In this document: piece by piece, positions 11,134 to 44,390 of the stretch
Layout of the letters: each line of letters starts with the position of its first letter
Position numbering within the stretch: the stretch's first letter is position 1
Source of the DNA: Fistulifera solaris
Lineage: Eukaryota
Assembly (NCBI GenBank): GCA_030295235.1
Contig: AP026137.1
Coordinates: 248,001-312,000, forward strand
DNA length: 64,000 nt
Reading direction: 5' to 3'
Notes under the pieces: model-generated
Seen by the model: the letters and a program-made list of their open reading frames with translations, nothing else
Told to the model about the DNA's origin: nothing
Databases searched by the model: none
Position numbers and translations under genes: made by a program

Positions 11134-11191
11134 CTTGTCTTGTCTTGTCTCGTAACTCTTTTTTTTTCTCAAACGCCCACGCTTTAAAGCG

Positions 11192-11677: not shown

Positions 11678-12508
11678 TGCTGCGGCGCTGCTGCTGTTGA
11701 CGAGCGGGGACAGAGCTGTTTGGTGGTAAGACATCGTTCTCTATGTAGTTGAAACCGGTCCGATTCATACTTGCAATAATAAGAGGCAGTTATTGATGCG
11801 ATGCGATGAAGAGCTACGATGATGCGATGATGGAGGATGAATGAATGAGAATAATAGGCGTTCAGAAAGGTTACCAGGTAATCCTCATATTCATTCTGCA
11901 ATTAAAGAAAAATGGCTTAGAGATTTGAGCAACCGATAATTTGTGGGGGATGCGGTGTAAGTACTCTGCTGCCCTACGAATTTTGCTCTTCGTCTGAAGC
12001 GACGAACTAGCCGTCCCGCAACGGTCTTCGGTCCAGCGTCCCCAAATTCGGTGGGCGATTAGCAGTCTGAGCTGGCAAATGCACGTAAAGGATACAATAC
12101 GGGAATTTTCATTTAGCCTGTGTTTAAGACGCCACAATACCTCAATAAGTGAATGATGTCAGAAGAAAGAGGAGACAGGACCCTTGACAGGACCTTGTTC
12201 ATGTTTAAGAAAGCGAAACCACAGCAAACGAGGGCAGGCCAGTTTGTAGATAAAGTGCTACAAGATCGAAGCATTATTGATAAGATCAGACAACATCATA
12301 CTGGTCTTCCCGTTTTGCAGGCTAGTGAGATTCTACTTTCTGCTGTAGTATCTACCTCCTTGCAACCAGTTTCACGGGCTGATCCCGACAAATCATCGAA
12401 GCTCAAAAAGGAATGAAGCAGACTACTGAAGGGCTAAAACGCTTCATCTTCACACTTTCAAACAAAAGTCGTTGCTACAGATTAAATGCTGGCGATGTGC
12501 GATAATAG

Positions 12509-16344: not shown

Positions 16345-16991
16345 TTGATGTCAATTGATTGATACAATAGGCAAAAGTAAGTGTAAAGGCAACAAAAACG
16401 GGTTTTTGTGAATTTTTTGCTGCTGCAGCGGCGCTGCTGCTGCCGGACGACGTAGAGACTGATCTAAAAGAGTACCGCATTGCATCATTTCATATTTTAA
16501 TGCAAGCAAGACACTACCGCAAACACTCGTAGCGGTACTTGTCTATTCAACGCATTGAAAAGTGCTAAAGCTAAAGAGACTAGAGAAACGTAACGAAACA
16601 TCGTACTATAAAACCCAATGCTAGACAAGTAATCATTGAGTCAAACTATACTAGGCAATCGCTGGAAACAACAACTTTGATACTAATTTTTTTAAAAATT
16701 AGCATTCGACAATACTGTTACCAGTACGAGTATCATTTCACATTTTTGAGCTAGTTAGACAACACCGCGACTCTAAGCGGTACGTGTCCATGATTTAACG
16801 CATAGAGAGACTAATAACCCAATGCTAAAGACAAGCTTCAATAAAATAGACTTTTATTAGGCAATTGTTTATACGAATAACGACTTTTGACAACATAAAC
16901 ACAAACGACTACATTCTCAGAATTCTCCCGACGAAAAAACACTTTGCGCAATACAAAAGGACAAACGAACCCAGGCAACTCGAATTCACAT

Positions 16992-18208
16992 TTAACGGAT
17001 GATGAAACGAGATCCAAACGATGGAGAAACGCAAATACCACTAGCACCGTGGTGAGATCGATTTGGAGACGCATCAACTTTCCAGATACACAACATCTCA
17101 TCCGAACCCATGGAAGCGAGCTTGCAACCATCGGGGCTCATATCCATTGTCAAGATGCGGCCTTTGTGCAAAGACAAACTCTGAATCGGCTCCATCTTTG
17201 GGTAACTCCACGCAATGACCACATTGCTTGGACTAGAGGTCGAAAAGCCATGGCTGGAATACAACTCCTGATGATGACGCCCCCCAAATCAACGAAGAAA
17301 CTTGACTGTTGGTAGAAACGCTCTTCAACATATTCCCGGAAATTGCACTCCACAGCTTGATGCAGCCATCGGCAGTTCCGCCGCCAGTCGCGAGCATATC
17401 GCCGATAAGGACACCACGCCAGTCCCTTGACAGCCGCCGTGCGATTCCAGTACAAGTCGAGGTCCGGCATTGTTGATCATGGAAGGATCCCAAAGATGAA
17501 CTGCGTTATCATTTCGACCTCTTGCAAGGCACGTTCCTTCTGCATTCCAGGCCAGGTTGCAGACTGACAACACACCTGACGATGACGCTGATCCAGACAC
17601 GGTCATCCCTGTGACAGACCGAGAACGCAAGTCGAGATTCGCGAATCTCACTGTTCAGCGCATCCAGCCGTCAACCAATTTCGCTGAATCGTTCCAGCAA
17701 AGTGCGCGCACTGGGCTTCTTGCCGAGGTCAAGGAGGTGCAAACAACTTCTTTGTTGCTGATGGTGTCGTACACGCGAACAAAGCCTGAACTCGTTCCTA
17801 CTGCCAGCAGGTGCGTCATACCGTCCATTGTGCACCACTTGACAGATCGAACGTAATTCGAGGTCTCGTTTTCGTCAAGGGGTGTAATACCAGCGCCCCC
17901 AATCTCATGAACGGCACGAGTAGACTCGTTCATGACGCATACAGATGATCCCAGAGCCACAGCCAGCAAATTGTCTTTACTCCAGCTGAGTGGATGCGTA
18001 TAGTAATCATTTACAATACCCGGTACATCGAGAATGACTTCAGGACGGGATTTGAGGACACGAGCAGCGTTTACAATGACCTTTTCAGCCGTCAAGGTCG
18101 GGAAGGACGCAAGAAGTCCATCAGCGAAGGGTCCGCGTAGCAACGATAGGACGACGATTACTTGTCGTGGAAGGAGAAACAGAGCCGTACTTTAAAAGAG
18201 ACTTCAAT
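16992..18208 (-). pseudogene. CDC20: Cdc20/Fizzy APC/C coactivator copy 1, 5'-deleted and disrupted by a Copia element
   Basis: ILDVPGIVNDYYTHPLSWSKDNLLAVALG, AVKGLAWCP, LATGGGTADGCIKLW and C-terminal IR tail (FGSRFIIR*). The N-terminal C-box region is absent; its promoter and a split ATG lie at 21874 onward. Confidence 0.9.
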
Positions 18209-21200
18209 CCTTGGTACCACCAAAACCAGAGTAAAGACGTCCTCTCGTTGGAAACAGAGAAGTGATCCATTGAAACCTTCTGGCCCGGAATTAAAATATC
18301 CTTCGAGAGAACTTTGGATTGGCGATCGACGGTCAATTTCGCTCCAGTCGACTTGGCGCTTTCCTTTTCCATACATGCAAGCAGCGCTTGGGAATCGTAC
18401 AACGCGCCGCCCTGGACTTCAGCAGACTTTCCGAGAGCGCCGGTTTTGAGCAAGGCTTGAATGCTTTTCATGCTTCGGTGAACAAATCGGAAATGCAAGC
18501 GAAGAAGAAACTTCTGTGCGTCACTCAAGTTTTGATTCTCAGCTGTGGTAACACAGTTTTGAATCTTCGCAGCATTGAGAGCAACAGATTGTTTTCGGAA
18601 CATCTCCAGAGTCGGCAAATTGTTTTCAGGAGAGTATGCAATATCAAGAAAGTGGCCGTCCAACAAGTTGACATGAATGAGGCTCGAGTCGCCGGAAAAA
18701 CGCGGTTCGTCGTTTCGCGCCTTCACCAATTGACAATAAGACTGTGGGCTGAAGAGTCGAACATTCGCATTGGGCACATGTAATCCGGGAATCCGAAAAG
18801 TAAAGCCCTTGCCGTTGGACAGAGTAGCAGTCCATTCAAGAGTACCTCGCCCGCAATCGAAGAACCTGCAGCAAAGCCAGACAAAACTGTATCTCCAGTA
18901 GTAGGAGTGTAGGATGTGAAGTCATCACGGTCAAAAGTAACAGCAACTGTGGCTCCAGTGTCCCAAATAACCGGAAACAGATTCGCCATGGTCGGCTTTC
19001 CAGCGACATGGACTTGATGCAAAGCAGGGAGGGCATAAATAGACGGGGGCAGCTTCAGCGTACGGTGCAAAGTATGCTTTAGAATTGACTACACTATTAT
19101 CTCCCTCTCGAAGCAACACCGTCTCAGTAGCTCCCTCTGGAATAGAATGTCCAGTGGGATAGCAAAACAACGGCGTCATCGAGTAGGTGCCATGGCGTGG
19201 GATGGTCGTGCGGCGGACACGGCATATCAAACGACTTCGGTATTCAAATGACCGTTCGATCTATCATATCCGGAAGCTCCAATGCCCAACGCGGAATCAC
19301 TTGAAGTCGTCCTCAACGTTTTCTCCTCGCCGCAGGCTCAACAAAACGATTTTGCTTTCAACGCCGAAAAACACCACCCTCACCATGCTGACAAGTCGAA
19401 GCTTTGGATGATGAAGAAGGATCAGGAGGTCGGCGCAAACGTCGGCTACAATCACTTGGATGAAATCGGTGACAGCCATGCCAGGGCGGGCACCAAGTTA
19501 ACTCCATAGACAACACCAGGGGCTCCGAAGCGTCACTCGCCACATGCTCGTCATGATCGGAAGAAAGCACCATGAAACGACACGGGAGAGAGATGAGACG
19601 CTCGGGCAAAGGTTTGAATCGCGTCGAAGACCAAGAGAGCGACGATGAGCGGCACTTTGGGCACGCAACCACTTCGAAATGGTCGCAGCAACACGGAAAT
19701 GACGCCACCAAGAAAAGCACTCAACAATCAACCAGTAAAGAATAAAATGCTTCGGCGAGAGCTCCAACAACAAACGACCGATAAAGATGAATAAAAGGCT
19801 CAGGAAGGGACCTCGATCGAAAGGTTCACCTTCCCTGCCGATTTCCTATTCGAATCGCTGTCGGAACCCCAACAGAACTGCAAGGGTGCCGTCCAAGCTT
19901 GGGCAACATTAGCGGCAGGAGCGGCGGGCTTGGCATCAGCGGGCTTCTCTTCCTTGCTCTTGTGCTCGCCGGTTCCATGGGTCTGGTTCCAGCGCTTGCA
20001 TTTGGCGCAATAATAGAAAGTCTTGCCGTACTTGGTCATGGTGGTGGGCTCTCCATCCTTCGAGCGATGCGAGTCCAACGAGTTTCGGTCAAACCGCCGC
20101 CTTTCTTTTCGCCATCACCACCGCCAGTCTTCGTAGCAGCCTTGTCTTTGTTCGCCTTCTTGTCCTTGGTCTTCGAGGGAGGCAGTTTTAGTGCCATTCG
20201 ACTCGAATTTCGACTTGAGGGTCTTGAACTCGGCTTTGAGACTCTTGATCGCCGCAGCATTAGCACTAACTTCAGTAGTAGTTCCTTTAGCCGGTCCCCA
20301 ATCTTCCTTTAGGTTGCTGTAGACATCCTTTGCTTCATGGAGAATGCGGCGATAGTTGGTGTAGCCGCTCATCCTTTCAGCAACTTCCTTCGACTTTCCG
20401 GCAGAGAGACGCACAAAGTCGGAGAGGGATGCGAAGCCGTGTGCCAGTGAACACGGAATCCTTCGACCGAGCAAGTGCACAGCTGCTGCTGCAAAATGAC
20501 CAAGTGATCGCGAGGGAGCTGATCATTGGCCTCCAACTCTTGCAAAGTCTCCATCTGCGCATTCGCCCCAGGCAGCAACATTTTCTCCGGGAGTTTCGAC
20601 CAACTTGCGCTTGCGAACACCTCTTCGAGTTCGGAGACACGGCGAAAGGCGTTTGGAAGAACTTCTTCGGTGATTTTCATCCAAACCAAAGGTCCAAGGC
20701 GCGCATGAGCAGAGCTCAAAGAAGTTCGAATCGTGCGCTGGAAGGAGCTCCAACGAGTTAAACAGAAAAGCAGCCGAATCGCTAAGCGAATCGATCATAT
20801 ACTGATCAAACACACCGGACTTGATCATGTCTTCGAGGTGCTTCGCGACTTCATCGAAGGTGAACTTGCCGTGGTAGACGAAGAGATCAATCACTCGACT
20901 GAGATCAGCAGGATCGTTCATGAAGAACGGCGTATCGAGACCATGCGTAATGCAATGGTTGAACGCTGAATCAGCGAGCTCAACAAGGCGATAGTCATTC
21001 GCAGTAGGACTGAACTTGGGGTCGAGACCGGAGATGCGATCCTTGAAACTTTTCTCGGCGATACGGATTCGGATCTCGAAAGCAGTAGGGCGTCGCAGGC
21101 ACAAGGTTAACACTGCGAGTAAAGCTTGCATCCGGAGCACCACCAATGGCTGGGATAGAACATTGAACAAGGCCGAACTTCGGCACGAGAACGGGCTCGG

Positions 21201-22779: not shown

Positions 22780-23682
22780 CGCCCAATAGGGTGTGCGAGC
22801 TGTGAAAGTGAAAGTAGTCGATTCGAACATTCGCCACTCTTACGACTTGGCTGCACGACGACGGAGACGCTTCGCTTCCACAGCTTCGATGGCTTTCTCC
22901 GCCATCTCGGGGGTGAAAACGGCGCTCGCGATAGCGCTGTGGTAGAAAGTGGTGTACTTTTCCAAATAAGCCAAGTAGTCCTTGCAGCGAGCAGCCAGTT
23001 ATTGGAGTGTCAACGGAAGATGTCGAAGAACACAGTACACGTAAGGTTGCAACTGTGCTGGATGAGCCAACTCTCCAAGATGAGTGCGAAAGAATTCATC
23101 TTCTTCCACCACATTATCCAGACAGAAACGACTGCACTCAAACTCACTTTCAACAAACCGCTTATCACCCTCCAGGTTCAATGTCCGTACGTCGCAATAC
23201 ATGCGGTCCTACTTCTCCTTTGTCAATGAGTAACGATTGGGGATCTCCTTAACGCCCGTCACAATCTGTGGCACAAAGCTGACACTGCGAGCAGGAGAAG
23301 AAGAAAAGGCTTCGTCGATTTTTCGTCAAAGCCCTCCGCAACATTCGACAAAGGCAGGACGGAAACCAGCGGTGCTTCCGGTTGCACAGCATTTCGATGT
23401 TAAACACGCAGTATCGACATCGGCATCTTGCTCGACGGGGAGTGCTTCATTCGTCTCCTCAATCAATGATGTAGGATACTCAGAAAGGTCACCAGGTTGC
23501 ACTAGGGGTGCGAAGGCATCGCCAGATTCAACTAGAAGACCTCGATCTTGACACAGGACTACAGGCGGCTGGTCTGCCGCCAAACAAGATTTCTCGGGGC
23601 TTTTTGTTCGCTGCCGCTTGCACGACGAATCTTCATGGCTTTGGGTACTCAGAGGAGAGACAGAATGCTCTGAAACTTGCAT
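22780..23682 (-). CDS. Uncharacterised SILK/RVxF/HLGELxHPAxF family protein, subfamily C copy 1
   Basis: MQVSEH...CKRQRTKSPE, PMSILRV, ARSVSFVPQIVTGVKEIP and REFE-like ESEFECSRFCLDNVVEEDEFFRTHLGELAHPAQL. Frameshifted; the 3' end is approximate. Confidence 0.72.
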
Positions 23683-25219
23683 TTTGTTTGTTTTTAGATG
23701 AGAATAAAGATTATAATCAGCAATAACGGTGTTTAGTATGAACGTCATGAAATGTTTTTGCTGCCGCTGCTGACGGACGACGAATGCCGGCGACGAAAGA
23801 CATCATTGGGTACCATTATGACCTAATCTATTTCTTTCTTTTATAACCATGACCATAGTGGGGAAGTCCTCTTCGGTTGACGCCTTAGTTTTTCTTTTAT
23901 TATAGACTATAGTTCAAAGCTAAAAGCTGACAATGAAGCCTTAATTTCATTTTTACTACAACCAACTTTGTCTAAGTATCTGTTTTTAAGTTTGGCGCTA
24001 GTATCTCGATTGTCGATAGATGATATTGTACACGGAGTACCTTACAGTCGATCGGATCGACCTGTTGATGAATGGTAAGCTATTCTTTCGTTCCAACGTA
24101 TACATCGAGATATCGATATAGCTTCTCTGTGATTTTCAGTGCTTAGTCATGGCTAAGGACAATTATAAAATACAGCTGGGCGCTGCTGGAATTGTGTGGG
24201 CATTCGATACTTTTGTTGTAACAGGTTCATTAACAAGTTATACAGTCTCACACAAGATTGTGCGTAATGTTTATTTTTTACATAAGGTTTTGTTGTTTTG
24301 TAGTTCCCATTGATGTAAAGATTCGTGATTGCAGTCGTTTCTCTATAATTCTCTTACGAAGCCAGTTCGACGGTTTTCCCTGCCGCTTGGCCCCACTATT
24401 GTTGGTAAAAGGGTTTTAGCATCGACAACAACGGATGAATATCATCATCTTTTTGTAAATCATTTACCTTTTCTAGTTTCTCTAGCATCATTTCGGGCGT
24501 CACAGACTCGTCCGCTTGTACAATGACAGTCTTGTTTGCGACGTCGGTGTCAATCTCCGAGACCCCTGAAATTCAAACATCAAGACTGTAAATCGGTATG
24601 CATGTATAACGCAATCGATCAACGCACCGTCGCAACGCACCTTCCAATTTACTCAAAATCCGCTTGACGGCAGCCGCACAACCCTCACTGTACGAGCGTC
24701 GGTGAGGGTAAAGCGACGAACAAGAAACAGCCCCTCACAGAAAAGACGTACCAAGTCATTCCTACATTAAATCGCGTCTCAACCATCTTGTTTGTGGATA
24801 ACGTGCAGAAAGGATGCAGTATCGTTTGAGCGAATGAACAATGACAAGATATTGTAGACTATACGGAGTATTGTTTATTCACTTCAATAAGCGGAGCGCG
24901 CAACAAAACACGGTTCAATAAATATATCGTACCGGTACCTATTCCTGTTATCACCAGTACTCTTGCGACAAATACTGTATTTCCTTTCTTTCAACGGTCG
25001 CAAAGAAAAACGACCATGACGATGTTTCATTGACGATGTAGCAGCCGCGCTATTGATCTTCATTTCCATTTTGCTTTCGCCTATCGCTTGTCATTTCTCT
25101 ACATTTCTGAATCTTTCAGTAGTAAAACGAGAAAAGCGATCGACGGTTCTTAAAACGAAACACAGGCATCGAAGCATTTTTGTAAACGACTTCCTAATTT
25201 CTGTCATTTTGACTCTACT

Positions 25220-27413: not shown

Positions 27414-29016
27414 TCAGCGGATGGTGAAACGGGAACCGAACGAGGGGGGAAACCGCGACGGCTGTACGGCGTCGAGTTGGAGCGGCATCAACTTTCCAAA
27501 GGCACAAATTCTCGTCTGCACCTATAGATACCAACTGGTTGCCATCGGGCTCAAATCCATTGACAAGATGCGATCTTGATGATACGAAAGTGTCTGAATA
27601 CGTTCCATTTTCGGGTAGCTCCAGGCCACGACTTCATTGTCCGTGAAGCCGTGGCCGGAAAAGAGCTCCTGGTGGTGTTGGCCCCAGATCAGTGAAGAAA
27701 CTTGATTTCCAGTACAAACGCTGTTCATCATACGTCCTGAGCATGTATTCCACAGCTTTATGCACCGATCTGCAGTGCCACCGCCACTGGCAAGCACGTC
27801 ACGCCGATAAGGACACCATGCCAGTCCCTTGACAGCCGCCGTGTGTGATTCCAATATACGACGGGGACCGCCGCCTACTTGGAGGCTTTTCATCATAGAA
27901 GAATCCATCACTTCGTCCACTCGCGAGACACGTGCCTTCAGGATTCCATGCAATGTTGCAAACCGAAGCCGACGATGAAGATGACGGTGATCCGCGCCGA
28001 GTCATTCCTGTCATCGAACGGCTACGCCAATCAAGACTAACAAGCTTTCCCGTATCGTAGCCAACTGTCAACCATTGTAAGGCATCATTCCAGCAAAGCG
28101 CGTGAACAGTACCTCCTCCAACATTGAGAGACGTGTGCACTTCTTTCTTGCACGTGGCGTCGTACAATCGAACTCCTGAGTCGGTTCCTACCGCTAGGTA
28201 GTGCGTCAACCCTTCAACTGTGCACCACTTCACTGCCCGAACGTGGCTCGAAGTTTCATTTCGATTGCGAGACACCTTCTTCAAGTCGACTAGCTCGTGC
28301 ACTGCATCTGTAGCCATGTTCATGATGAACACGACCGACCCAAGCCCTACTGCGAGGACATTGTCCTTACTCCAACTGAGCGGATGAGAGTAAAAGTTAC
28401 TCGCAATATCCGGTACATCAAGAACTGCTTCAGGACGGGAATGGATAACACGAACGGCGGTTGCATTGATCTTTTCAGCCGTCAAGATCGGGGAAGAACG
28501 CAAGAAGTCCATCGCGAAAGGGTCCGCAGCAACGATAGGACGACAATTGCCCCTCATGGAAGGAGAAACAGAGCCGTACTTCAAAAGAGACTTCAATTGA
28601 AGCTCATCATCGAGATCGCTCGTCGACACATTGCACAACGTGCTCAGCAAGTGTTTCTCGTAAACGAGTTTCGTCGAACGAGCTGCGGACGGAGGACCGG
28701 CGCAAGCAACACTGGACGATTCACACGACTTAGACGCAGAATTCAGCTTTCGACGACACAAATCCATATTCATGCGACGACGAGACGGAATGAAACGATC
28801 CAGATCGTCACGAGGAGCAGTTTGCGGCGTAAACAAACGACGATGATGATGAGCAGTCGAACGCATGCGAGGGACTGGAGTTTTAATCATCTGCGGAGTG
28901 CGATACGCGACAGTCAGCGCCGCTCCGCGGTTTCCAGGACGATTAGGAGTTGATAGATGAGTATGCGAAAGCATATCAGAGGAAAGCACGTTGTTTTGAG
29001 AGCAAGAATACACCAT
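27414..29016 (-). CDS. CDC20: Cdc20/Fizzy APC/C coactivator copy 2
   Basis: C-box DRFIPSR, WD40 repeats (VLDVPDI, HTAAVKGLAWCP, LASGGGTADRCIKLWN) and IR tail GSRFTIR* (TGA at 27414-27416). A small deletion near 27905 shifts the frame. Confidence 0.9.
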
Positions 29017-29276
29017 GGTGTGATTTTTGGTTCAAAGCAAAAATTAAATTATGCGGATAAAAAGGCTTGCTGCGGTACATAATTGTACGTGAGAGATACG
29101 CTCATGTAGCGAATCGTACCACGCAAGGCGTAGAAATGTTTATACAATACACAATGTATAAACAAAATCTGTACTGTACGACCAACTGTATTATTTTTTT
29201 CATTGCTATATCGCAAAATATCAACCTTTAGACCAATTTCGCATTTGAAGTCTTCAGGTTCTCTTTTTAGTGTAAA

Positions 29277-29761
29277 CTAGCCGCCTTCGGCGTCTAGCCC
29301 CTGCAGGGCTTTTTTCGTTCTCGCCCTTCCCGCAAGCGGGGGCTCGATCCCCGGGGATAGCGTCACACCCGTGATTCGGACACCCGGGACCAGCGTTACG
29401 TTACGTGACACACACACACGGACACAGCGCCTATCAAAAAGTGCACAAACGCAAAACGAAACGAAAGCGGAAAAAGCACAAACGCAAAACGGAAGTAAAA
29501 AGAGCACCAACGCAAAACGGAAGACTCAGAAACGTCGCATTCGAAATTCGAAAACCAAGGAAACGTCACTCTAGAACAACCAATGAGAACAAAGAAAAGA
29601 ACATAAAGAACAAAAGAAATGTGGAATGAGAACAAAGCAAAGAACACAAAGAACAAAAGGAACGTCAAACCCGTGATTCAGACACCCGGGACCAGCGTTA
29701 CGTTACGTGACACACACACGGACACAGCGCGCTATTATAAATAGATAGATAAATAGATAGA
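29277..29761 (-). mobile_element. Non-autonomous Helitron (485 bp)
   Basis: On the minus strand: 5' TC start, 3' CTAG end preceded by the hairpin CGCC-GAA-GGCG, inserted between host A and T with no TSD. Empty site at the paralogous position about 22120-22140. Confidence 0.85.
29367..29730. repeat. About 62-bp direct repeat inside the Helitron (29367-29430 and 29669-29730)
   Basis: ACCCGTGATTC(G/A)GACACCCGGGACCAGCGTTACGTTACGTG(AC)nGGACACAGCGC twice, separated by A-rich low-complexity sequence. Confidence 0.9.
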
Positions 29762-29831
29762 TGAAGCAACAACTAACTCTTAGGTTGAATTTTGGTGTTT
29801 TTCTAGGTATTGAGAAGCTTGATTCACCGTA

Positions 29832-31021
29832 CACGGCGATTCAAACAGGGGGTTTTCGGAGATAAGGTTATCTGATAATATGACGCATTACACACGACTA
29901 AAGCTTCGTGACTTATCTAGCGAAATGACCATTGAACTCTATAACAGCTAAATCCAAACAATATACATGATCAACATGCAAATTATCTACAATAGTTAAT
30001 AGATGACATCCGGTTTTCGTCTTGATCCGACCGAAATCGTTAGTAAAGATGGTATTTAGTGCTGCTCAAGCTCGCCACAAAATCTATTTGCTATATTTCA
30101 AGAAAGCCACAGTGGAGTGAAGGTATTTGTTTGCAAATACCGTGGCATCTCAATCGTCCCTTGCAAAGTATTTGCTGGTGACTTGTTTCACGATACATTT
30201 CACCAGCTCGATGCCTTCTGAAATGAAAAGTCACTTTTGACTGTGATGGAGTGTTAGGATAGAAATGAAGCACTACGTTAAAGAAAACCATTTTTTCACC
30301 AAAATATCATTATTTCTTATCCGTCTTGAGTATATTTGTGTCTTTGATTTAGCCATCATTGAGAAACGCGTATACAAAGGGGATTAGATTGGGTCTTTGA
30401 CATCGGCGTGGGTCTTCTGGAGACATCTCAAATTTTTTCTCGAAACAGAGTCAACTCATTTGGGCTGAGTTTACGGTCATGGTTGATTGTTATTCATACA
30501 ATAGTAACCTCTGATTTTCTCATTTGGCGGTTAAAAGGCGCATCTTACGCAATCTTTGATGGGAGAAAAAATGGGTTGAGAAAATTGTCACTGCCATTTA
30601 TGCAGAAAAGGTGCTATATTACCATCAGTGGCTCTATACGATATCCCCAGAGTGGCTCAATAAATGTGTTGGATATATGACATCACTCTACATTGACACT
30701 GATTCTTAAAACAATTCACAGGATGAAATGTTGCGACGATGTTGCGACGATGTTGCCAGCTTTTTGTGCTTCTGAAGCCAAACAGCTGGGTTTGCTTGGC
30801 CAATCCTACACCCAGAAGCCATTTGAAGCCCCGCTCGCCCGACCAGATCGTACTGGAGGCAATGAAGAAATAGTGTCCAATCTTTTTTTTTCAAAAGCAT
30901 TCACAAGATGAGTTAAGTAATATGTTTCCTGATCTTGCGGTCATGGTGACAATTTCGTTGAGTTGACAACATGCGGTCTGTCTTCCATCCGTCGACGTTA
31001 TCTCCGTTTTGAATCGCCGTG
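29832..31021. mobile_element. Non-autonomous TIR DNA transposon (1190 bp), CAC...GTG termini, 4-bp TSD
   Basis: TIR CACGGCGATTCAAA / TTTGAATCGCCGTG, CGTA duplicated on both flanks, absent from the paralogous site near 22195-22205. No intact transposase ORF. Confidence 0.85.
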
Positions 31022-31543
31022 CGTAATAGTCGTTGTCAAACGCTAGCAGCATCGCATCATCATCGACCGACGCGATTGATAAGATGCTTCGCCGTGTGGA
31101 GTCGCCACGACTCATCCTGAGCTCTAGCTAGAAATTAATACGTATGGAAGCCGAAGGGAGCGCCTTATTCCTGCCAGCTGTCGTTTTCTTTACCCCATCT
31201 CGCTTTATCTGCTTAACTAATTATAAACTATTGACTTCAAACTGATCAAGTAAAATGTTTACGAAAAACGAATTTAACACTCTTAAATTTTATTAGTATA
31301 GCGAGAATGAGATGGATGCATCGCAGCTCCATTCAATTATATTCATTCAGCAAAGCATTTTTCTTGGTACTTACGAACGAAGCGGACGAAAAGAAACGCA
31401 AATTAAAGGACAAAAGATCAATCAAACAAAACAAACGATTATCACTGGGTGATGTGTTTGTCGCAACAGTCTTGGATGTGGATGTGGATGTTTAAGAGCT
31501 AATGCTAAATTGCAGCGATTGCAATTCGCGACGACCGGCTGAA

Positions 31544-32477
31544 TCAAACACCAAAGATCCCGCACGCAAAGTAGAGTGTGAGCAGTAAAAGTGGAAGACG
31601 ACCGGTTCGAACACGCGCGACTCTTACGACTTTGCAGCACGAGCGAAGACGACGGCGGAGACGCTTCGCTTGCACAACTTGGATGGCTTTCGCGGCCCTG
31701 TCGGGTGAAAACGGCCCTCTGCAATAGCACTGTGCCAATCAGCCGTGTACTTTTTCATACAAGCCAGGTATTCCTCGCGTGAGCAATAACCGGTTATGGG
31801 AGTGTCAACGGGAAGATGTCCGAAAACATTGAACATGTAAGCGCGCGAATTGTGCAGGATGGGTCAGTTCTCCAAGATGTGTGCGAAAGAACTCATGTTC
31901 TTCCACCACATTATCCAGGCAGAACCGACTGCATTCAAACTCACGTTCCACCAACCTCTTATCACCCTCCAGGTTCAATGTCCGCACGTCGCAGTACATG
32001 CTGTCCTTCTCCTCCGTCGTCAATGAGAAACGATTGGGAATCTCCTTCACGCCCGTCACAATCTGCGGTGCGAAGCTGACACCTCTGAGAAGGAGAACAA
32101 GACAGGCTCGTCCATTTTTCGTCAGAGCCCTCCGCAACAATCGAGAAAGGCAGGACGGAAACCAGCGGTGCTTCCGGGCGCACAGCATGACGATGCTTCA
32201 TACGCAGGATCGACATCGGCTTCTTGCTCGACGGGCGTACTTCATTCGTCTCCTCACTCAATAACGGAGGGCACTCAGAGAGGTCACCAGGTTGCACTTG
32301 GGTCGCGAAGGAATCGCCAGAACCCACCAAAAGATCTCGATCTTGACTCGGGGCAACGGGCGGCTGATCTGCCGCCGAACACAATTTCTCGGGGCTTTTC
32401 GTTCGCTGCCGCTTGCACGACGAATAATCATTACTCTGGGGACTCAGAGAAGAGATAGAACGCTTTGAAACGCGCAT
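31544..32477 (-). CDS. Uncharacterised SILK/RVxF/HLGELxHPAxF family protein, subfamily C copy 2
   Basis: MRVSKRS...CKRQRTKSPE, KKPMSILRMKHR, RGVSFAPQIVTGVKEIP and EREFECSRFCLDNVVEEHEFFRTHLGELTHPAQF. The 3' end is approximate. Confidence 0.75.
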
Positions 32478-32806
32478 TTTGTTTGTTTTTAGATGAGAAT
32501 AAAGATTATAATCAGCAATAACGGTGTTTTGTGTCGATATTTGTTGTTGCTGCTGCTGCCGCTGCTGACGGACCGGGGACAGACATTCTTGTTTGTACGT
32601 CGTAGCGGCTCTAATCCAATATCACACATGATACCGATACGATTTCTGAATACCTGATTGACGATTGAACGCTGAACATCCCGTCGATCGTCCGCAGCTG
32701 CGCGATGATAAAAAATGAACATCATCAACCGCAAAATCTTTCTTTCACTTATCTCCTACAAGAAAAGTGGACCTCTTCGTTCGTTTGCTCCCTACATGTT
32801 GAACAA

Positions 32807-33470
32807 ATGAAAGTGTTCTGTTGGTTTGTTTTACTGGGCGCATGGCAGCGCCTTGTCGTCTCAGATGGCTTTATTCTTCCTCCACGCTCACACAATAACA
32901 ACGGAGGTGGTAACAATAACGGCAATTGTCCTCGAGTCTCTAATGCAGGAGAAGCGATGACGCAAATTTACCTTCTGCTTACTCAGTTGGATGAGCTACG
33001 AAGAGGTAACCGATGAGAAAATCGTTCTGAGTGTCGAAAACGGCGCGGCACGGACGTCTTTGCATCCATCATCGCCATCTACGGAACGCCTCATCGCCAG
33101 CACAAGTCGTACAACAACAACAAGCAAACCATACTCATTGGTGTCTGCAGCTCAACACTGGAATAATGTTTTCACACCCACCAAATCGACTTTTGCGAAA
33201 CCATTCCAAAATGTCAATCAAGCGATACGTTGCAAATTTCGCAACCCACGACAAAAAGCTCAAGACGAAATGACGCAAACCATACACACGATACCGGTCA
33301 AGCAGGTCGTGAAAACACCCGATAGTACCGTCTTACCTAGTACGGCAGTCCACATTCCCGCTAGACGATCGCGATTATTGGGGCAACCCTTGGGCATCGA
33401 TCGCGTCCAAGAGTTTGCTCGTTCCATTCAACGTCGGTGCGCGCGACAGGGCTCGTTATTTCTGCAGAGG
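32807..33470 (+). pseudogene. 5' fragment of a secreted or plastid-targeted protein, possibly Omp85/POTRA-like
   Basis: Signal-peptide-like MKVFCWFVLLGAWQRLVVSDGF; later LLGQPLGIDRVQEFARSIQRRCARQG resembles a POTRA helix. No barrel-coding continuation follows. Confidence 0.35.
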
Positions 33471-34188
33471 TAACAGGGATAATCGATACCGAATCTCTTA
33501 AGCGTCCCTTGTCCTCGCGCTAAAATAGATATGTTGCAACGAAAAGTTCTCAAGGGCAGATGAGGCCAGATGAGCAGCATATAAGTCGTTTCAGCCCGTC
33601 GCACAACCGGCGAAAACACCCGCAGCTGCCATTCTCATCAGTTCTGTTTAATAGCTAGCAAATGTGGTGCTTTTAAAGTTTGAATTGACACCTGAGCTGA
33701 TGTATTGGATGAAAGAATAATAGCAAGTGTCTTCCAGACAACATAGTAGCACTTGACGGCGTGAATCGCCAGAAAAACCAAATTTCTGCCAGAATTATAA
33801 TCTCGATGTTGGTGATGATGGATTTCGTTGGAGAAGCAACATTCTTCCAAAAAATGGAAAAGGAGACGAGGCCCATCGCAGCAACACCTTTTCGCGAATG
33901 GAGGACGAAGGAAATGAAAGTGATTCATTTAACGCCGATGTTTTCGTTGCCGATCCAGATTGCTAGATGTATCACCCTCAGTAATGAACTTAGTATCGAG
34001 TTTAAGTTCTAGTTGAAGAATTTTAACGAAGAAACACAAATGTTAGAGTTATCAAATCGCAATAAAGCTACTGCACACAAAACATAAAGACGAGATTCAT
34101 TAGGACGAGTACCAGGTAATTGTCGGGAGAACAACAAGCCGAGCATCATACAACAGTGAATGATTTGTGCCAAGTACATCAAATGCAC

Positions 34189-35861
34189 TCAGCGGATGGC
34201 GAAACGAGAACCAAACGAAGGGGATGTAAGACGATTTGCTGCGTCTGCTGATCGAGACCGCGAAGAAGCCGGGACAGCATCGATTTTCCAAATACACAAG
34301 GAATTATCAGCACCCATCGATGCGAGCTTCGTACCGTCGGGGCTCATTCCCATGGACAATATGCGACTTTCGTGACCGCGCAAAGTTTGTATCTGATCCA
34401 TCTTGGGGTAGCTCCAGGCGACAACAGCGTTCGTTGAAAAGTTCATTCCGTCCCCAAAGCCATGACCGGAGTACAACTCCTGATGGTGCTGACCCCAAAT
34501 CAATGAGCAGACTTGACTTCCAGTAGCCACACTCTTTAGCAGATTACCCGAGCAAGCATTCCACAGCTTGATGCACCCATCTGCCGTTCCCCCACCACTG
34601 GCGAGCACATCGCGTCGATAGGGACACCAAGCCAAACCCTTTACAGCACCCGTATGCGACGCCAAAATGTGTCGTGGACTTTGACCACGGCCCGACTCCG
34701 GTCTTCGCGTCATGGATGCATCCCACAGGTGAACCATATTGTCATTTCGACCGCTGGCAGACACGACCCCTCACTATTCCACGCTAAGTTGCACACCGAT
34801 GAAGAGCCTCCTACAGAGGGTGCCATTGTCATTGTTGTCTCGACGCCACTCGCGTAAGTCATGATTCCCAATCTTCCCGTTAGTGTACCCCGCGGTCAGA
34901 TATTGCCGAGATTCATTCCAGCATATTGCACGCATCGTACTGTTTCGACAACCCATGTTGGTCCGCATAATTTCTCTGCCGCAAGTTGTGTCGAACACTC
35001 GCGAAGCCAACACTCGTCGCTACAGCAAGGTGATGTGTGCTGCCGTCCATTGTGCACCACTTCACAGAGCGGACATGGTTTGAGAGACCCCTTTGGTGGA
35101 CAGGTGTTTTGCCGGCGCCCCGCTATTTCTTGCACAGCACCGGTAGACACGTTCATGAGGTACACGGATGTACCCAGCGCCACAGCTAGAACATTATCCT
35201 TGCTCCAGCTGGTCGGATTCGTGTAATAATCATCCACAATACCACGGGCATTTAACGTCTTCGCCGGATGAGGGCTAATTGTGCGCTTGATCGCGGCGAT
35301 GTTCAACTTTTGATCCAAAGTATTGAAATCGCAGCTCGATGATCGTAGCAAGTCCATCGCGAAAGGGTCCGCAGCAACGATAGGACGACGATTACCCGTC
35401 ATTAAAGGAGAAACAGAGCCGTACTTCAAAAGAGACTTCAATTGAAGCTCATCATCGAGATCGCTCGTCGACACATTGCACAACGTGCTCAGCAAGTGTT
35501 TCTCGTAAGCGAGTTTCGTCGAACGAGCTGCGGACGGAGGACCGGCGCAAGCAACACTGGACGATTCACACGACTTAGACGCAGAATTCAGCTTTCGACG
35601 ACACAAATCCATATTCATGCGACGACGAGACGGAATGAAACGATCCAGATCGTCACGAGGAGCAGTTTGCGGCGTAAACAAACGACGATGATGATGAGCA
35701 GTCGAACGCATGCGAGGGACTGGAGTTTTAATCATCTGCGGAGTGCGATACGCGACAGTCAGCGCCGCTCCGCGGTTTCCAGGACGATTAGGAGTTGATA
35801 GATGAGTATGCGAAAGCATATCAGAGGAAAGCACGTTGTTTTGAGAGCAAGAATACACCAT
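34189..35861 (-). CDS. CDC20: Cdc20/Fizzy APC/C coactivator copy 3
   Basis: C-box DRFIPSR, TLNARGIVDDYYTNPTSWS, SGRNDNMVHLWD, HTGAVKGLAWCP and IR tail FGSRFAIR*. Frameshifts in the middle. Confidence 0.92.
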
Positions 35862-36117
35862 GGTGTGATTTTTGGTTCAATAAAGCAAAAATTAAATTAT
35901 GCGGATAATAAAGGCTTGCTGCGGTACATAATTGTACGTGAGAGATACGCTCATGTAGCGAATCGTACCACGCAAGGCGTAGAAATGTTTATACAATACA
36001 GGTTGTATTATACCGTAACGCTATACCGTAGGGCAACTACTAGCTTTATTATTGCTGCATCGTCATCTATTTATTTATTATTCTCCTTGCAATGTTTTTG
36101 CACAAATTTACATAATC

Positions 36118-36722
36118 ATGAAACAAGACGACGGTAATAGCAATTTCAAAAACAAACTCGGAAAGCTCCCACCTCCGTTATTTGGTGAAGACGACTGTGA
36201 TCGACCCGCATGTCACGACATGATGTCGCAAATGAAAAAGGCTTCGCAAGCAAGTCAAGAAAAGAAAGCGGTAGATTGCCCACCTAACAGCGGTGTTTTG
36301 GGCCGAGCTTCGTGGACTTTGCTACATACAATGGTACGAGCGAACGGCATACCTACTTCCGTTTTAAATACGACGAGCGACTTTCCTCATAGTTTATCTC
36401 TGCGCTTGATTTATTACAGGCCGCTTGGTATCCGGATCAACCAACTGCGGAAGATCAGCAGCACATGGAAAGTTTCATGAGTGCACTAGCACGGTTTTAT
36501 CCCTGTACATGGTGTGCTCGCGATTTCCAAGCCAACTTAGAAGAGAGTCCCGTCCCCACCTCGAGTCGGAAAGAATTGTGTCAATGGATGTGTGAACAAC
36601 ACAATTTGGTGAATGAGAAACTGGGGAAATCTGTCTTTGATTGTGATTTAAAGAATCTTGACAAGCGGTGGAGAAAGAATACGCAAGATCCCGAATGTAA
36701 GACAAGTGGTTTGCTTCATTGA
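36118..36722 (+). CDS. ERV1: Erv1/ALR FAD-linked sulfhydryl oxidase
   Basis: LGRASWTLLHTM|AAWYP across intron 36334-36419; YPCTWCA redox motif, LCQWMCEQHNLVNEKLGK and FDC...RW. Confidence 0.93.
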
Positions 36723-39352: not shown

Positions 39353-39599
39353 CTTCTGTTGGAAAGACGAAGCTCATCAACAGTCCATTTGTTTGACTCT
39401 CTTCATCTGCTTAGACTTATACGTACTAATAGGAAAAGTGCCTTAAAGTCGTCCCGGTATTCAAAACGTTATAGAAATTAGAGCCGCTACGACAATCAGG
39501 CACATAGTCTGCCCGCGGACCGTTAGCAGCAGCAGCAACTTTGACACAAACACCGTTATTACTGACAATAAAAGCCGTTCTCATCTAAAAACAACCAAA

Positions 39600-40680
39600 A
39601 TGCGAGTTTCAAAGCGTTCTATCTCTTCTCTGAGTCCCCAAAGTCATGAGGAGTCGTCTCACAAGCGGCAGCGAACGAAAAGCCCCGAGCGATTGTGTTC
39701 GGCGGCAGATCAGCCGCCCGTCGGCCAGAGTCAACATTTTGATCTTTTCTTTGATTCTGACGCTTCCTTAGCGAACGTGGAGCCAAAAGACGATCGTTCT
39801 TCGTATCTTCACTTATCCTCTGAGGGAATGGAGTCGATGGGAGAAGTGATGCCCATGGCCTTGTTCCAGGAGTCGTATCAGTCTGATCTCAAGTCGAAGG
39901 ACCCGCTCGACTTCAGCGCGGCCTCTGTTGAATCTGTTCGACCTGGTGATCTTTCTGAGTTTTCTCCGTCACTCATTGAGGAGTCTGTTGATGTTCAAGT
40001 GGCGCAGGAAGCCGGTGTCGATCTTGCGTATGAAACATCGAAATGCCATCAGTCCGCAAGCACACCTGGCTTCCGTCCCGCCTTTATCGAAAATCACGGA
40101 GGACTCGAGCAAGAATGACGAACCATCTTTGTGTCCCTTCTCGTAGAGGCGTCACCTTTGCACCGCAGGTTGTGGCGGGTGTGACGGAGATTCCCAATCG
40201 CTCTCACGTGGACGAAAGAAGAGAAGGAAAGCATGCATTCCGACGGACGAACATTGAAGGCGGAGGGTGATATGAGGTTCGTGGAGCGTGAGTTCGAATG
40301 CAGTCGGTTCTGTCTGGATAATGTCGTGGAAGAAGATGAGTTTTTCCGGGATCACCTTGGAGAAATGGTCCATCCAGCATATTTTCACGCTTATGTGCGA
40401 TGTTATTCCACTTCTTGCTTCCGATCCACATCCCGGGATCTTTACACGCCCCGAATTTCGAAAGGCGATGATGCATTACTCCAAGTTTTATGACGACGCC
40501 CGTTCTGCAAAAGCGCTTTCACCCCAAGGAGGCAGAAAATGCGATGCAAGTTGTGGGCGTCGGCGCCTTCGTCGCCGCCGTCGTACATCGCGATCGTAGC
40601 TGCTGTGCTTATTGTTGCGTTTGTTTCTGAAGCTTTGACAATGTTGGTAGATACGTCCAATCCATGCCGGGATATCCATT
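39600..40680 (+). CDS. Uncharacterised SILK/RVxF/HLGELxHPAxF family protein, subfamily C copy 3
   Basis: MRVSKRS...KRQRTKSPE, RKPVSILRMKHR, RRGVTFAPQVV and EEDEFFRDHLGEMVHPAYF. Near-identical to 43299-44390; the 3' end is approximate. Confidence 0.75.
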
Positions 40681-41408: not shown

Positions 41409-43041
41409 TTAACGGATGACTAAACGAGATCCAAGCGATGGAGAAACGCAAATACCACTAGCACCGTGGGCGAGATCGAATTGGAGACGCATCAACTTTC
41501 CAGATACACAACATCTCATCCGAACCCATGGAAGCGAGCTTGCAACCATCGGGCTCATATCCATTGTCAAGATGCGGCCTTTGTGCGTAGACAAACTCTG
41601 AATCGGCTCCATCTTCGGGTAACTCCACGCAACGACCACGTTGCTTGGACTAGAGGTCGAAAAGCCATGGCTGGAATACAACTCCTGATGATGCCGGCCC
41701 CATATCAACGAAGAAACTTGACTATTGGTCGGCAGCTCTTCAACATATTCCGGAAATGGCACTCCACAGCTTGATGCAGCCATCGGCAGTTCCACCGCCA
41801 GTCGCTAGAGCATATCGCCGATAAGGACACCACGCCAGTCCCTTGACAGCCGCCGTGCGATTCCAGCATAAGTCGAGGTCCGGCATTGTTGGTCATGGAA
41901 CGATCCCAAAGATGAACTGTGTTGTCATTTCGACCGCTCGCGAAGGCACGTTCCTTCGGCGTTCCAGGCCAGGTTGCAGACTGACAACACACCTGACGAT
42001 GGCGCTGATCCAGGCACGGTCATCCCTGTGACAGAGCGAGAGCGCAAGTCAAGATTCACAATCTCACTGTTGGCACATCCAGCCGTCAACCAGTTCAGCG
42101 AATCGTTCCAGCAGAGTGCGCTGAACTGGGCTTCTTGCCGAGGTCAAGGAGGTGTGGACAACTTCTTTGTTACTGATCGTGTCGTACACGCCGAACAAAG
42201 CCTGAACTCGTTCCTACTGCCAGCAGGTGCGTCATCCCGTCCATTGTGCACCACTTAACAGATCGAACGTAATTCGAGGTCTCGTTTTCATCAACAGATG
42301 TGATACCGAGCCCGCAATCTCATGGACGGCACGAGTAGACTTCGTTCATGACGTACACAGACGATCCCAGAGCCACAGCAAGCAAATTGTCCTTACTCCA
42401 GCTGAGTGGATGCGTATAGTAATCATTCACAATATCCGGTGCATCAAGAACAACTTCAGGACGGGAATGGATAACACGAGCAGCGTTTACAATGACCTTT
42501 TCAGCCGTCAAGGTCGGGGAAGGACGCCAAGAAGTCCATCGCGAAAGGGTCCGCAGCAACGATAGGACGACGATTACTTGTCGTGGAAGGAGAAACAGAG
42601 CCGTACTTCAAAAGAGACTTCAATTGAAGCTCGTCATCGAGATTACTGGTCGAAACGTTGCACAGCGTGCTCAACAGGTGCTTCTCGTACGCGAGTTTCG
42701 TCGAACGAGCTGCGGAAGTAGGATCGGCGCAAGCAACACTGGACGATTCACACGACTTGGACGCAGAATTCAGCTTCCGACGACACAAATCCATATTCAT
42801 GCGACGACGAGACGGAATGAAACGATCCAAATCGTCACGAGGAGCAGTTTGCGGCGTAAACAAACGACGATGATGATGAGCAGTCGAACGCATGCGAGGG
42901 ACTGGAGTTTTAATCATCTGCGGAGTGCGAGGCGCGACAGTCATGCGCTCCGCGGTTTCCAGGATGATTAGGAGTTGATAGATGAGTATGCGAAAGCATA
43001 TCAGAGGATAGAACGTTGTTTTGAGAGCAAGAATACACCAT
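41409..43041 (-). CDS. CDC20: Cdc20/Fizzy APC/C coactivator copy 4
   Basis: ATG at 43041, C-box DRFIPSR, VLDAPDIVNDYYTHPLSWS and IR tail LGSRLVIR*. Closest to copy 1, including the 3' flank. Many indels. Confidence 0.9.
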
Positions 43042-43298
43042 GGTGTGATTTTTGGTTCAAAGCAAAAATTAAATTATGCGGATAAGGCTTGCTGCGGTAC
43101 AAAATTGTACGTGGGGATACGCTATGTAGGGATTTGTACCACGAACCACGTAGGCTTACATTATACAATACAGACTGCATTATACCGTACGGCAACTGTA
43201 TGGCCGCAGCAACGTTTGACACAATACCAGGTAAACTCAATAAAACAACGCTGTTGCTGATAATAATCTTTATTCTCATCTATAAACAAACAAACAAA

Positions 43299-44390
43299 AT
43301 GCGAGTTTCAAAACGTTCTGCCTCTTCTCTAAGTTCTAAGAATAATGAAGAGCCTTCTTGCAAGCGGCAGCGAACGAAAAGCCCCGAGCGATTGTGTTCG
43401 GCGGCAGATCAGCCGCCCGTCGGCCAGAGTCAACATTTTGATCTTTTCTTTGATTCTGACGCTTCCTTAGCGAACGTGGAGCCAAAAGACGATCGTTCTT
43501 CGTATCTTCACTTATCCTCTGAGGGAATGGAGTCGATGGGAGAAGTGATGCCCATGGCCTTGTTCCAGGAGTCGTATCAGTCTGATCTCAAGTCGAAGGA
43601 CCCGCTCGACTTCAGCGCGGCCTCTGTTGAATCTGTTCGACCTGGTGATCTTTCTGAGTTTTCTCCGTCACTCATTGAGGAGTCTGTTGATGTTCAAGTG
43701 GCGCGCAGGAAGCCGGTGTCGATCTTGCGTATGAAACATCGAAATGCCATCAGTCCGCAAGCACACCTGGCTTCCGTCCCGCCTTTATCGAAAATCACGG
43801 AGGACTCGAGCAAGAATGACGAACCATCTTTGTGTCCCTCCTCGTAGAGGCGTCACCTTTGCACCGCAGGTTGTGGCGGGTGTGACGGAGATTCCCAATC
43901 GCTCTACGTGGACGAAAGAAGAGAAGGAAAGCATGCATTCCGACGGACGAACATTGAAGGCGGAGGGTGATATGAGGTTCGTGGAGCGTGAGTTCGAATG
44001 CAGTCGGTTCTGTCTGGATAATGTCGTGGAAGAAGATGAGTTTTTCCGGGATCACCTTGGAGAAATGGTCCATCCAGCATATTTTCACGCTTATGTGTAC
44101 GATGTTATTCCACTTCTTGCTTCCGATCCACATCCCGGGATCTTTACACGCCGAATTCCGAAAGTCTATGATGCAATACTCCAAATTTTATGACAACGCC
44201 GTTCTGCAAAAGCGCTTTCACCCCAAGGAGGCTGAAAATGCGATGCAAGTTGTGGCATCGAAGTGCCTTCGTCGCCGCCGTCGTACATCGCGATCGTAGC
44301 TGCTGTGCTTATTGTTGCGTTTTGTTCTGAAGCTTTGAACATTGCTGTTATCGACATCCAATTCATGCGTGGGATCTGCACCTGAAAGTG
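43299..44390 (+). CDS. Uncharacterised SILK/RVxF/HLGELxHPAxF family protein, subfamily C copy 4
   Basis: ATG at 43299, SILR at 43719-43730, RGVTF at 43846-43860 and FFRDHLGEMVHPAYF. Divergent from Cdc20 copy 4; the 3' end is approximate. Confidence 0.75.

What the first reader, a model, noticed from the sequence alone, without database searches (positions are those of the whole stretch)
28501..36000. Mosaic Cdc20 paralogs: homogenised promoter and N-terminus, divergent WD40 propeller
28560-29150 and 35407-35999 are almost base-identical (upstream region plus about 150 codons including the C-box), and copy 4 shares this block. Similarity drops abruptly after ADPFAMD and the WD40 domains differ greatly. 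This is the reverse of the usual Cdc20 pattern, where the N-terminus is variable and the propeller conserved. Inference: gene conversion keeps expression and APC/C docking uniform while the degron-binding surface diversifies.
Basis: partly seen in the sequence, partly recalled or inferred. Interest (0 to 1): 0.7.

Follow-up and report, generated by a model that had tools for sequence, protein, structure and literature searches.

The report
Cdc20 gene array with shared fronts
A diatom chromosome carries four side-by-side copies of the cell-division regulator Cdc20 whose front ends are kept nearly identical by copying between the genes while their substrate-binding back halves are old and different, a real but familiar kind of gene-family evolution.

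Summary
All four Cdc20/Fizzy copies lie on the minus strand. Copy 2 (28562-29149) and copy 3 (35407-35998) differ by 1 substitution and 4 gap columns over 587 identical bases. This block is 133 nt of upstream DNA plus about 152 codons with the C-box. Both edges are sharp, and copy 4 shares the block at 92%.

Synonymous divergence between copies 2 and 3 is 0.012 in the N-terminal part and about 3 in the propeller. Trees of the two parts disagree. N-termini group by subgenome (names of the closest database relatives point to Fistulifera solaris, Fso_h versus Fso_l). Propellers group into three old types shared with other genomes. I read this as recurrent gene conversion between the copies, confined to the 5' end.

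- Copy 2 is a pseudogene yet carries the block.
- The propellers are under purifying selection.
- The KEN-box pocket is conserved in all types.
- Copy 3's type has lost both carboxylates that hold the D-box arginine, which is rare in the family.

The many 1-2 nt frameshifts in copies 1 and 3, and probably copy 4, look like assembly errors. The kind is known and the case is new, so interest is moderate. Earlier notes of this scan on other DNA of this genome also called frameshifts assembly errors.

The parts
16995..18207 (-). Copy 1: Cdc20 propeller type C, with IR tail. The first ~139 codons are missing; homology to the other copies starts at the codons for LKSLLKYG (~18207), and upstream lies unrelated DNA.
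   Evidence: tblastn. Frameshift-aware alignment to P0014: 372 of 373 aligned residues identical, 7 frameshifts. Block alignment.
27417..29016 (-). Copy 2: Cdc20 propeller type A, a pseudogene. At ~27906 a deletion removes six residues (NxVHLW) and shifts the frame. Two further shifts at 27551 and 27447 sit in C runs.
   Evidence: The exact 405-aa truncated ORF and its frameshifted tail are present in other database entries P0024, P0025 and P0001.
28562..29149 (-). Conversion block in copy 2: 133 nt upstream of the ATG plus codons 1-152, including the C-box DRFIPSR.
28504..28561 (-). Transition zone in copy 2 (35349-35406 in copy 3): 5 substitutions, ending at the codons for ADPFAMD. Beyond it the copies are alignable only as protein.
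31805..32510 (-). Member of an unnamed multi-copy gene family ('gene X') lying between copies 2 and 3. It has no Pfam match.
   Evidence: Repeat families D2, D6, I1-I8; ORFs; Pfam negative; Atlas search gave no usable hit.
34192..35861 (-). Copy 3: Cdc20 propeller type B with IR tail. D-box arginine clamp changed (LNAR for LDxP, GADNS for GxDE). Four 1-2 nt frameshifts in this assembly at 35120, 35002, 34851 and 34760.
   Evidence: (426 of 426 aligned residues identical to P0029, 4 frameshifts).
35407..35998 (-). Conversion block in copy 3.
41412..43041 (-). Copy 4: Cdc20 propeller type C (closest to copy 1; dS 0.21, dN/dS 0.25), IR tail LVIR. It shows 10 frameshifts against P0014 over the propeller and 12 against P0007 over the full length.
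42589..43170 (-). Copy 4's version of the shared block, 92% identical to copies 2 and 3 (coordinates approximate).

Best explanation
The window holds a same-strand array of four Cdc20-type APC/C coactivator genes of a diatom; database names point to the Fso_h copy of chromosome 10 of Fistulifera solaris or a very close relative. Their WD40 propellers belong to three old paralogue types: A is copy 2, B is copy 3, C is copies 1 and 4. These types predate the split of the two Fistulifera subgenomes and are shared with other genomes. The first ~0.6 kb of each gene (core promoter/5' UTR plus the disordered N-terminal region with the C-box) is repeatedly overwritten from a neighbouring copy by non-allelic gene conversion, so that part evolves in concert within a genome. 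The latest event, between copies 2 and 3, is very recent (1 substitution in 588 nt). Copy 4 was last homogenised earlier (92%). I infer that the tract stops at the junction between the disordered region and the propeller because downstream sequence is too diverged, with indels in the linker, to sustain heteroduplex. Conserved 5' homology permits further conversion, which in turn preserves the homology. Shown here: the near-identity, its sharp edges, homogenised synonymous and non-coding sites, and tree incongruence in two lineages. Inferred: the recombination mechanism, its recurrence, and why the tract ends where it does.
For: - Block identity: 587 identical columns, 1 substitution, 4 gap columns; longest identical run 371 nt versus at most 45 in 2000 shuffles.
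- Synonymous divergence: copies 2-3 N-terminal part 0.012 versus propeller 2.95; copies 2/3 versus copy 4, 0.16 versus 1.3-2.4.
- The identity covers 133 nt of non-coding upstream DNA.
- N-terminal tree (17 rows): Fistulifera clade 100/99, L rows 96/94, H rows 92/88, regardless of propeller type.
- Propeller tree (17 rows): copy 2 groups with P0003/P0005/P0011/P0012 (100/99), copy 3 with the Fso_l gene FisN_10Lu349 and a chromosome-15 paralogue (100/100), copies 1 and 4 together (100/100).
- AU tests reject forcing propeller types onto the N-terminal data (p 6e-47 and 1e-5) and forcing the window copies together on the propeller data (p 3e-7).
- The same pattern appears in another lineage: P0003, P0010 and P0007 group in the N-terminal tree (95/96) but fall in different propeller clades, and the forced clade is rejected (p 8e-7).
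- Copy 2's exact 405-aa ORF, N-terminus included, occurs in another collection (P0024).
Against: - Copy 3's full N-terminus is seen only in this assembly. The one other contig with this gene (P0029) starts inside the block and covers only its last ~21 codons.
- The assembly carries many small indels in these genes, so local quality is poor.
- The groups for the AU tests were named after the trees were seen.
- Source organisms of the unnamed ENA, JGI and Logan proteins are unknown, so the 'second lineage' is inferred from sequence alone.
- No read-level data could be examined.
Confidence: 0.8

Rival explanations
1. Assembly artefact: the identical block arose from consensus collapse or mis-polishing between paralogues, and the real copies differ there.
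For: The same genes carry 24 or more small indels that intact database versions lack, so consensus quality here is low. A nanopore-only assembly (Canu plus Nanopolish) of the closest named organism exists (bioRxiv 10.1101/2021.11.10.468027, passages read).
Against: The block is only ~0.59 kb with unique DNA on both sides, and the copies are 6.8 kb apart, so long reads should anchor it. Copy 2's N-terminus is identical in another collection's contig (P0024). Annotated proteins of the other subgenome show the same rule, with subgenome-specific N-termini on different propeller types. The errors seen are indels, not base replacements.
Confidence: 0.07
2. A single recombination event: an unequal crossover or a short segmental copy once grafted one gene's 5' end onto another. 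There is no ongoing concerted evolution.
For: For the copy 2 - copy 3 pair alone, one event explains everything.
Against: There are three levels of similarity: copies 2-3 at 99%, copy 4 at 92%, and FisN_10Hu319's N-terminus more distant but still H-type. The L-subgenome N-termini cluster separately, and the pattern repeats in another lineage. Together these need several events over time.
Confidence: 0.1
3. Purifying selection on the N-terminal protein sequence alone keeps the copies alike, with no DNA exchange.
For: The N-terminal region is well conserved across all relatives, for example DRFIPSRRRMNM and AADPFAMD.
Against: Synonymous sites (dS 0.012) and 133 nt of upstream non-coding DNA are also identical. 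Subgenome-specific residues are shared across paralogue types.
Confidence: 0.02

Closest known systems
Arabidopsis thaliana CDC20 multigene family (AtCDC20.1-6; PMC9357983, passages read)
   Same: Several Cdc20 genes sit in local clusters. Some copies are intronless. C-box and IR/LR tails are kept. The copies are thought to differ in function.
   Different: In Arabidopsis the N-terminal regions are the poorly conserved part and the WD40 domains are highly conserved. Here it is the reverse within a genome, and the cause is DNA exchange confined to the 5' end.
Concerted evolution of tandem duplicates by partial (tract-limited) gene conversion; a general phenomenon, with textbook cases such as globin and RH genes recalled and not checked by a call
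   Same: A short tract of near-identity with sharp edges inside otherwise diverged, closely linked, same-strand paralogues. Synonymous and non-coding sites are homogenised. Tract and flank trees disagree.
   Different: The tract coincides with a functional module (promoter-proximal DNA plus the APC/C-docking disordered region). It appears maintained across two subgenomes and another lineage, next to propellers whose synonymous sites are saturated.
Human Cdc20 and yeast Cdh1 WD40 degron receptors (PDB 5g04, 4ggd, 4bh6; PMC3690534 and PMC12401543, passages read)
   Same: Pfam WD40_CDC20-Fz at full length. The KEN-receptor residues NDN, T377, Q401 and R445 are conserved in all types. The LDxP motif and Glu465 are conserved in types A and C.
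   Different: Type B (copy 3 and FisN_10Lu349) has Asn for Asp177, Arg for Pro179 and Asn for Glu465. Among 124 diverse family representatives, 103 keep both carboxylates and only 1-2 lack both.

Membership tests
CDC20/Fizzy APC/C coactivators | Full-length CDC20/Fizzy WD40 propeller (Pfam PF24807 above its gathering score) | tested here: met
   P0028 (intact homoeologue of copy 3) scores 305 bits and P0014 (intact version of copy 1) 314 bits, against a cut-off of 200, over profile positions 1-292. Copy 2's truncated ORF reaches only 112 bits over profile 1-158. PDB best hits are human Cdc20 at E 5e-64.
CDC20/Fizzy APC/C coactivators | C-box DR(F/Y)IPxR in the N-terminal region | tested here: met
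   DRFIPSR is present in copies 2, 3 and 4 and in all relatives with an N-terminus. It aligns to human DRYIPHR. Copy 1 lacks this part.
CDC20/Fizzy APC/C coactivators | C-terminal IR tail | tested here: met
   FIIR (copy 1), FTIR (copy 2), FAIR (copy 3) and LVIR (copy 4), after reading through the frameshifts.
CDC20/Fizzy APC/C coactivators | KEN-box receptor residues (human N329/N331, T377, Q401, R445) | tested here: met
   Conserved in all four copies, except that copy 2's deletion starts inside the NDN motif. The mapping goes through the HMMER alignment to 5g04_R.
CDC20/Fizzy APC/C coactivators | D-box receptor carboxylates (human Asp177, Glu465) and the LDxP motif | tested here: not met
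   Not met for copy 3 (LNAR and GADNS). Met for copies 1, 2 and 4. The role of Asp177 and Glu465 is taken from PMC12401543.
Non-allelic gene conversion / concerted evolution | A near-identical tract with sharp edges inside diverged paralogues, including synonymous and non-coding sites | tested here: met
Non-allelic gene conversion / concerted evolution | Phylogenetic incongruence between tract and flank | tested here: met
   Caveat: the groups were named after the trees were seen.
Non-allelic gene conversion / concerted evolution | Read-level proof that each copy really carries the tract | not testable with these tools
   No reads and no whole genome are held. The metagenome scan returned only three loci from more distant relatives.
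Processed or decayed pseudogene | Disabling lesions reproducible in independent data | tested here: inconclusive
   Copy 2: yes, for the deletion at ~27906. Copies 1 and 3: no, because intact database proteins differ from the window only by indels (372 of 373 and 426 of 426 residues identical). Copy 4: there is no exact counterpart to compare.

The most novel reading that the evidence does not exclude
Diatoms of this lineage run a modular set of APC/C coactivators. Gene conversion, favoured by selection, keeps one common promoter and APC/C-docking/regulatory N-terminus on several substrate-receptor propellers. One of these (type B, copy 3) has given up the D-box arginine clamp and so reads a different degron or acts as a decoy.
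Probability: 0.15. Interest if true: 0.65.

Novelty: new member of a known kind. Interest (0 to 1): 0.4.

Why it matters
The case shows cleanly that DNA exchange between neighbouring paralogues can be confined to one functional module, here the promoter plus the docking region, for a long time. As a result, sequence identity in part of a gene family says nothing about the age of the genes. It flags a Cdc20 paralogue with an altered D-box pocket, kept in both subgenomes of an allopolyploid diatom, as a candidate for specialised APC/C targeting in a group whose cell cycle is little studied. It also warns annotators that the frameshifts in this array are mostly technical.

Tried and rejected
- General frameshifting of the window was rejected. 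The CDC48 pieces are joined by a canonical 73-nt GT..AG intron, and the choline-transporter-like pieces by a ~60-nt GTAAGT..CAG intron. Sec24 (790 aa), Sec1 (602 aa), O-FucT (677 aa) and MFS (570 aa) are single open frames.
- Introns cannot explain the Cdc20 frame changes. The shifts are 1-2 nt with no extra DNA, and three relatives on metagenome contigs are single-frame genes.
- No whole genome is held.
- The metagenome scan for independent contigs of the same copies returned only 3 more distant loci out of 149 pattern matches.
- The DNA upstream of copy 1 was checked as a retroelement. It gave only a sub-threshold Pol_BBD hit (E 0.013, 16 bits against a cut-off of 27) and no similarity to the LTR element at 6.4-11.7 kb.
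- Gene X has no Pfam family and no usable Atlas hit.
- The antisense ORF inside the block (28294-28950, + strand) has no Pfam family.
- The mapping of the Tyr279 ABBA residue is ambiguous by one column, so I did not use it.
- Literature: 'Fistulifera solaris' plus CDC20 gave 2 papers. CDC20 plus 'gene conversion', tandem and paralogs gave 3 papers. By title and abstract listing, none describes this array.
Full report
**What is there.** The window is eukaryotic. Searches with the translated ORFs hit human Cdc20 and Cdh1 structures. In the protein collection they hit a small family whose only named members are Fistulifera solaris proteins: FisN_10Hu310, 10Hu319, 10Lu329, 10Lu336, 10Lu349 and 15Lu304. 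That diatom is an allopolyploid with two subgenomes called Fso_h and Fso_l (bioRxiv 10.1101/2021.11.10.468027, passages read). I read the H and L in the gene names as those subgenomes.

Four Cdc20 copies lie on the minus strand:
- copy 1: 16995-18207
- copy 2: 27417-29016
- copy 3: 34192-35861
- copy 4: 41412-43041

Each has a disordered N-terminal region with the C-box DRFIPSR (missing in copy 1), a WD40 propeller and an IR tail. The intact database versions pass Pfam's CDC20/Fizzy propeller model, at 305 and 314 bits against a cut-off of 200.

**The observation.** Copy 2 (28562-29149) and copy 3 (35407-35998) share 587 identical columns, 1 substitution and 4 gap columns. The block covers 133 nt upstream of the ATG and the first ~152 codons. 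After 5 substitutions in the next 57 nt, DNA similarity collapses behind the codons for ADPFAMD. The upstream edge is just as sharp. Copy 4 shares the block at about 92%. Copy 1 keeps only its last ~90 nt and is joined there to unrelated DNA. The longest identical run between copies 2 and 3 is 371 nt, whereas 2000 shuffles of the alignment columns never exceeded 45.

**What it is.** Synonymous divergence between copies 2 and 3 is 0.012 in the N-terminal part and 2.95 in the propeller. For copy 4 against copies 2 and 3 it is 0.16 against 1.3-2.4. Protein-level selection cannot produce this, nor identical non-coding DNA.

I split an alignment of 20 sequences at ADPFAMD and built two trees of 17 rows each. 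Left out of the N-terminal tree: copy 1, P0014 and P0015. Left out of the propeller tree: P0002, P0006 and P0008, which are truncated or chimeric gene models.
- N-terminal parts group by genome: all Fistulifera rows 100/99, L rows 96/94, H rows 92/88.
- Propellers group by type: copy 2 with four non-Fistulifera proteins (100/99), copy 3 with FisN_10Lu349 and FisN_15Lu304 (100/100), copies 1 and 4 together (100/100).
- AU tests reject each part's grouping on the other part's data (p 6e-47, 1e-5, 3e-7). The groups were chosen after seeing the trees.
- Three unnamed proteins (P0003, P0010, P0007) repeat the pattern in another lineage.

The simplest reading is recurrent non-allelic gene conversion confined to the 5' ~0.6 kb. 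The copy 2 - copy 3 exchange is very recent and copy 4's last exchange is older. For scale, global homoeologue identity in F. solaris is given as 91%, close to copy 4's 92%.

**Frameshifts.** A frameshift-aware protein-to-DNA alignment of my own finds 7 shifts in copy 1, 3 in copy 2, 4 in copy 3 and 10-12 in copy 4. Copy 1 matches the intact database protein P0014 at 372 of 373 aligned residues. Copy 3 matches P0029 at 426 of 426. The window therefore differs from them almost only by 1-2 nt indels. That is the signature of consensus errors, not of decay.

Other genes in the window are not affected. The CDC48 and choline-transporter-like genes are interrupted only by canonical short introns, and several long genes are open. 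So the errors are concentrated in the array. Of 24 shift sites, 13 lie within 2 nt of a CpG, against 7 expected (p 0.009). A nanopore-only assembly of the nearest named organism has been described. I did not establish which record the window is.

Copy 2 is different. Its first lesion removes six residues (NxVHLW) and shifts the frame, and the resulting truncated protein is present letter for letter in other database entries. That lesion is real, so copy 2 is a pseudogene. Its other two shifts sit in C runs and may be technical.

**The adaptive reading.** Propeller dN/dS is 0.11-0.25, and the types are old, so there is no sign of ongoing diversification. A pseudogene carries the freshest tract, so conversion does not need selection.

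I mapped human residue numbers through the HMMER alignment of P0028 to chain 5g04_R. On that mapping the KEN-receptor residues are conserved in all types. The D-box site is not. Asp177 and Glu465 hold the D-box arginine (PMC12401543, passage read), and yeast Cdh1 L255 and P258, in the same LDxP motif, touch the D-box (PMC3690534, passage read). Copy 3 and its Fso_l homoeologue have LNAR and GADNS at these places. All other family members in my alignment keep Asp and Glu, except FisN_15Lu304, which has Gln for Asp.

For a wider comparison I took the best 150 hits of a search of 1.84 billion cluster representatives, plus 8 earlier hits (153 ids), and kept the 124 that are 340-850 aa long. Of these, 103 keep both carboxylates and 1-2 lack both. 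The Tyr240-equivalent also differs by type: Tyr/Phe in A, His in B, Leu in C. So the propellers do differ at degron pockets, as fixed type-specific states.

**Comparison and novelty.** Tract-limited gene conversion among tandem paralogues is a well-known process. Cdc20 gene families with local clusters are known in Arabidopsis, where the N-termini vary and the propellers are conserved. Two full-text searches found no description of this diatom array. I file it as a new member of a known kind, with a side observation (the type B D-box pocket) that may deserve a bench test.

**Limits.**
- No reads, no genome and no DNA of the homoeologous array were available.
- Copy 3's complete N-terminus is seen only in this assembly.
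- The origin of the unnamed database proteins is unknown.
- Earlier notes of this scan on other windows of the same genome also called frameshifts assembly errors. I count them as agreement, not as evidence.

Noticed in passing
window 34192-35861 (copy 3) and database proteins P0028, P0004, P0015: Type B Cdc20 paralogues have lost the D-box arginine clamp: Asp177 to Asn (Gln in P0015), Pro179 to Arg, Glu465 to Asn. Only 1-2 of 124 diverse family representatives lack both carboxylates. This suggests a coactivator with altered degron reading.
   Followed up: partly
window 16995-18207, 34192-35861, 41412-43041: Small indels are concentrated in the Cdc20 copies, while neighbouring single-copy genes are clean. 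13 of 24 sites lie within 2 nt of a CpG (7 expected, p 0.009). Base-calling errors at methylated DNA are a possible cause, which would imply that the array is methylated.
   Followed up: partly
window 6365-11681: LTR retrotransposon with an RVT_2 and a retroviral SH3-like domain. It is flanked by ~455-nt direct repeats that differ by 3 substitutions and 2 one-base gaps, yet its coding region is split over five or more frames.
   Followed up: partly
window 18208-19300, minus strand: Copy 1's N-terminal 139 codons are replaced in frame by an unrelated 266-aa ORF. A neighbouring ORF has a DTGA motif and a sub-threshold Pol_BBD hit (E 0.013). Database versions of this gene (P0002, P0031) have a full N-terminus, so this is either a structural difference or a misjoin.
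   Followed up: partly
window 3700-5130, 15131-16546, 22911-23778, 31703-32573, 39548-40600, 43243-44300: An unnamed multi-copy gene family ('gene X') is interleaved with the Cdc20 copies in both orientations. Its product has a Ser/acidic-rich N-terminus and a conserved C-terminal domain containing VxFAPQ..IPNR. One copy starts 258 nt from copy 4's ATG on the other strand. It has no Pfam or Atlas match.
   Followed up: partly
window 29280-29730: Two ~60-nt direct repeats flank an A-rich stretch just upstream of the shared block of copy 2. This may be a small inserted element that sets the upstream edge of the block.
   Followed up: no
window 36019-36480, plus strand: An ORF divergent from copy 3 starts ~200 nt from its ATG, so copy 3's promoter region is very short. 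By recall the sequence resembles Erv1/ALR-type sulfhydryl oxidases, but Pfam gave no hit at E 0.1.
   Followed up: partly
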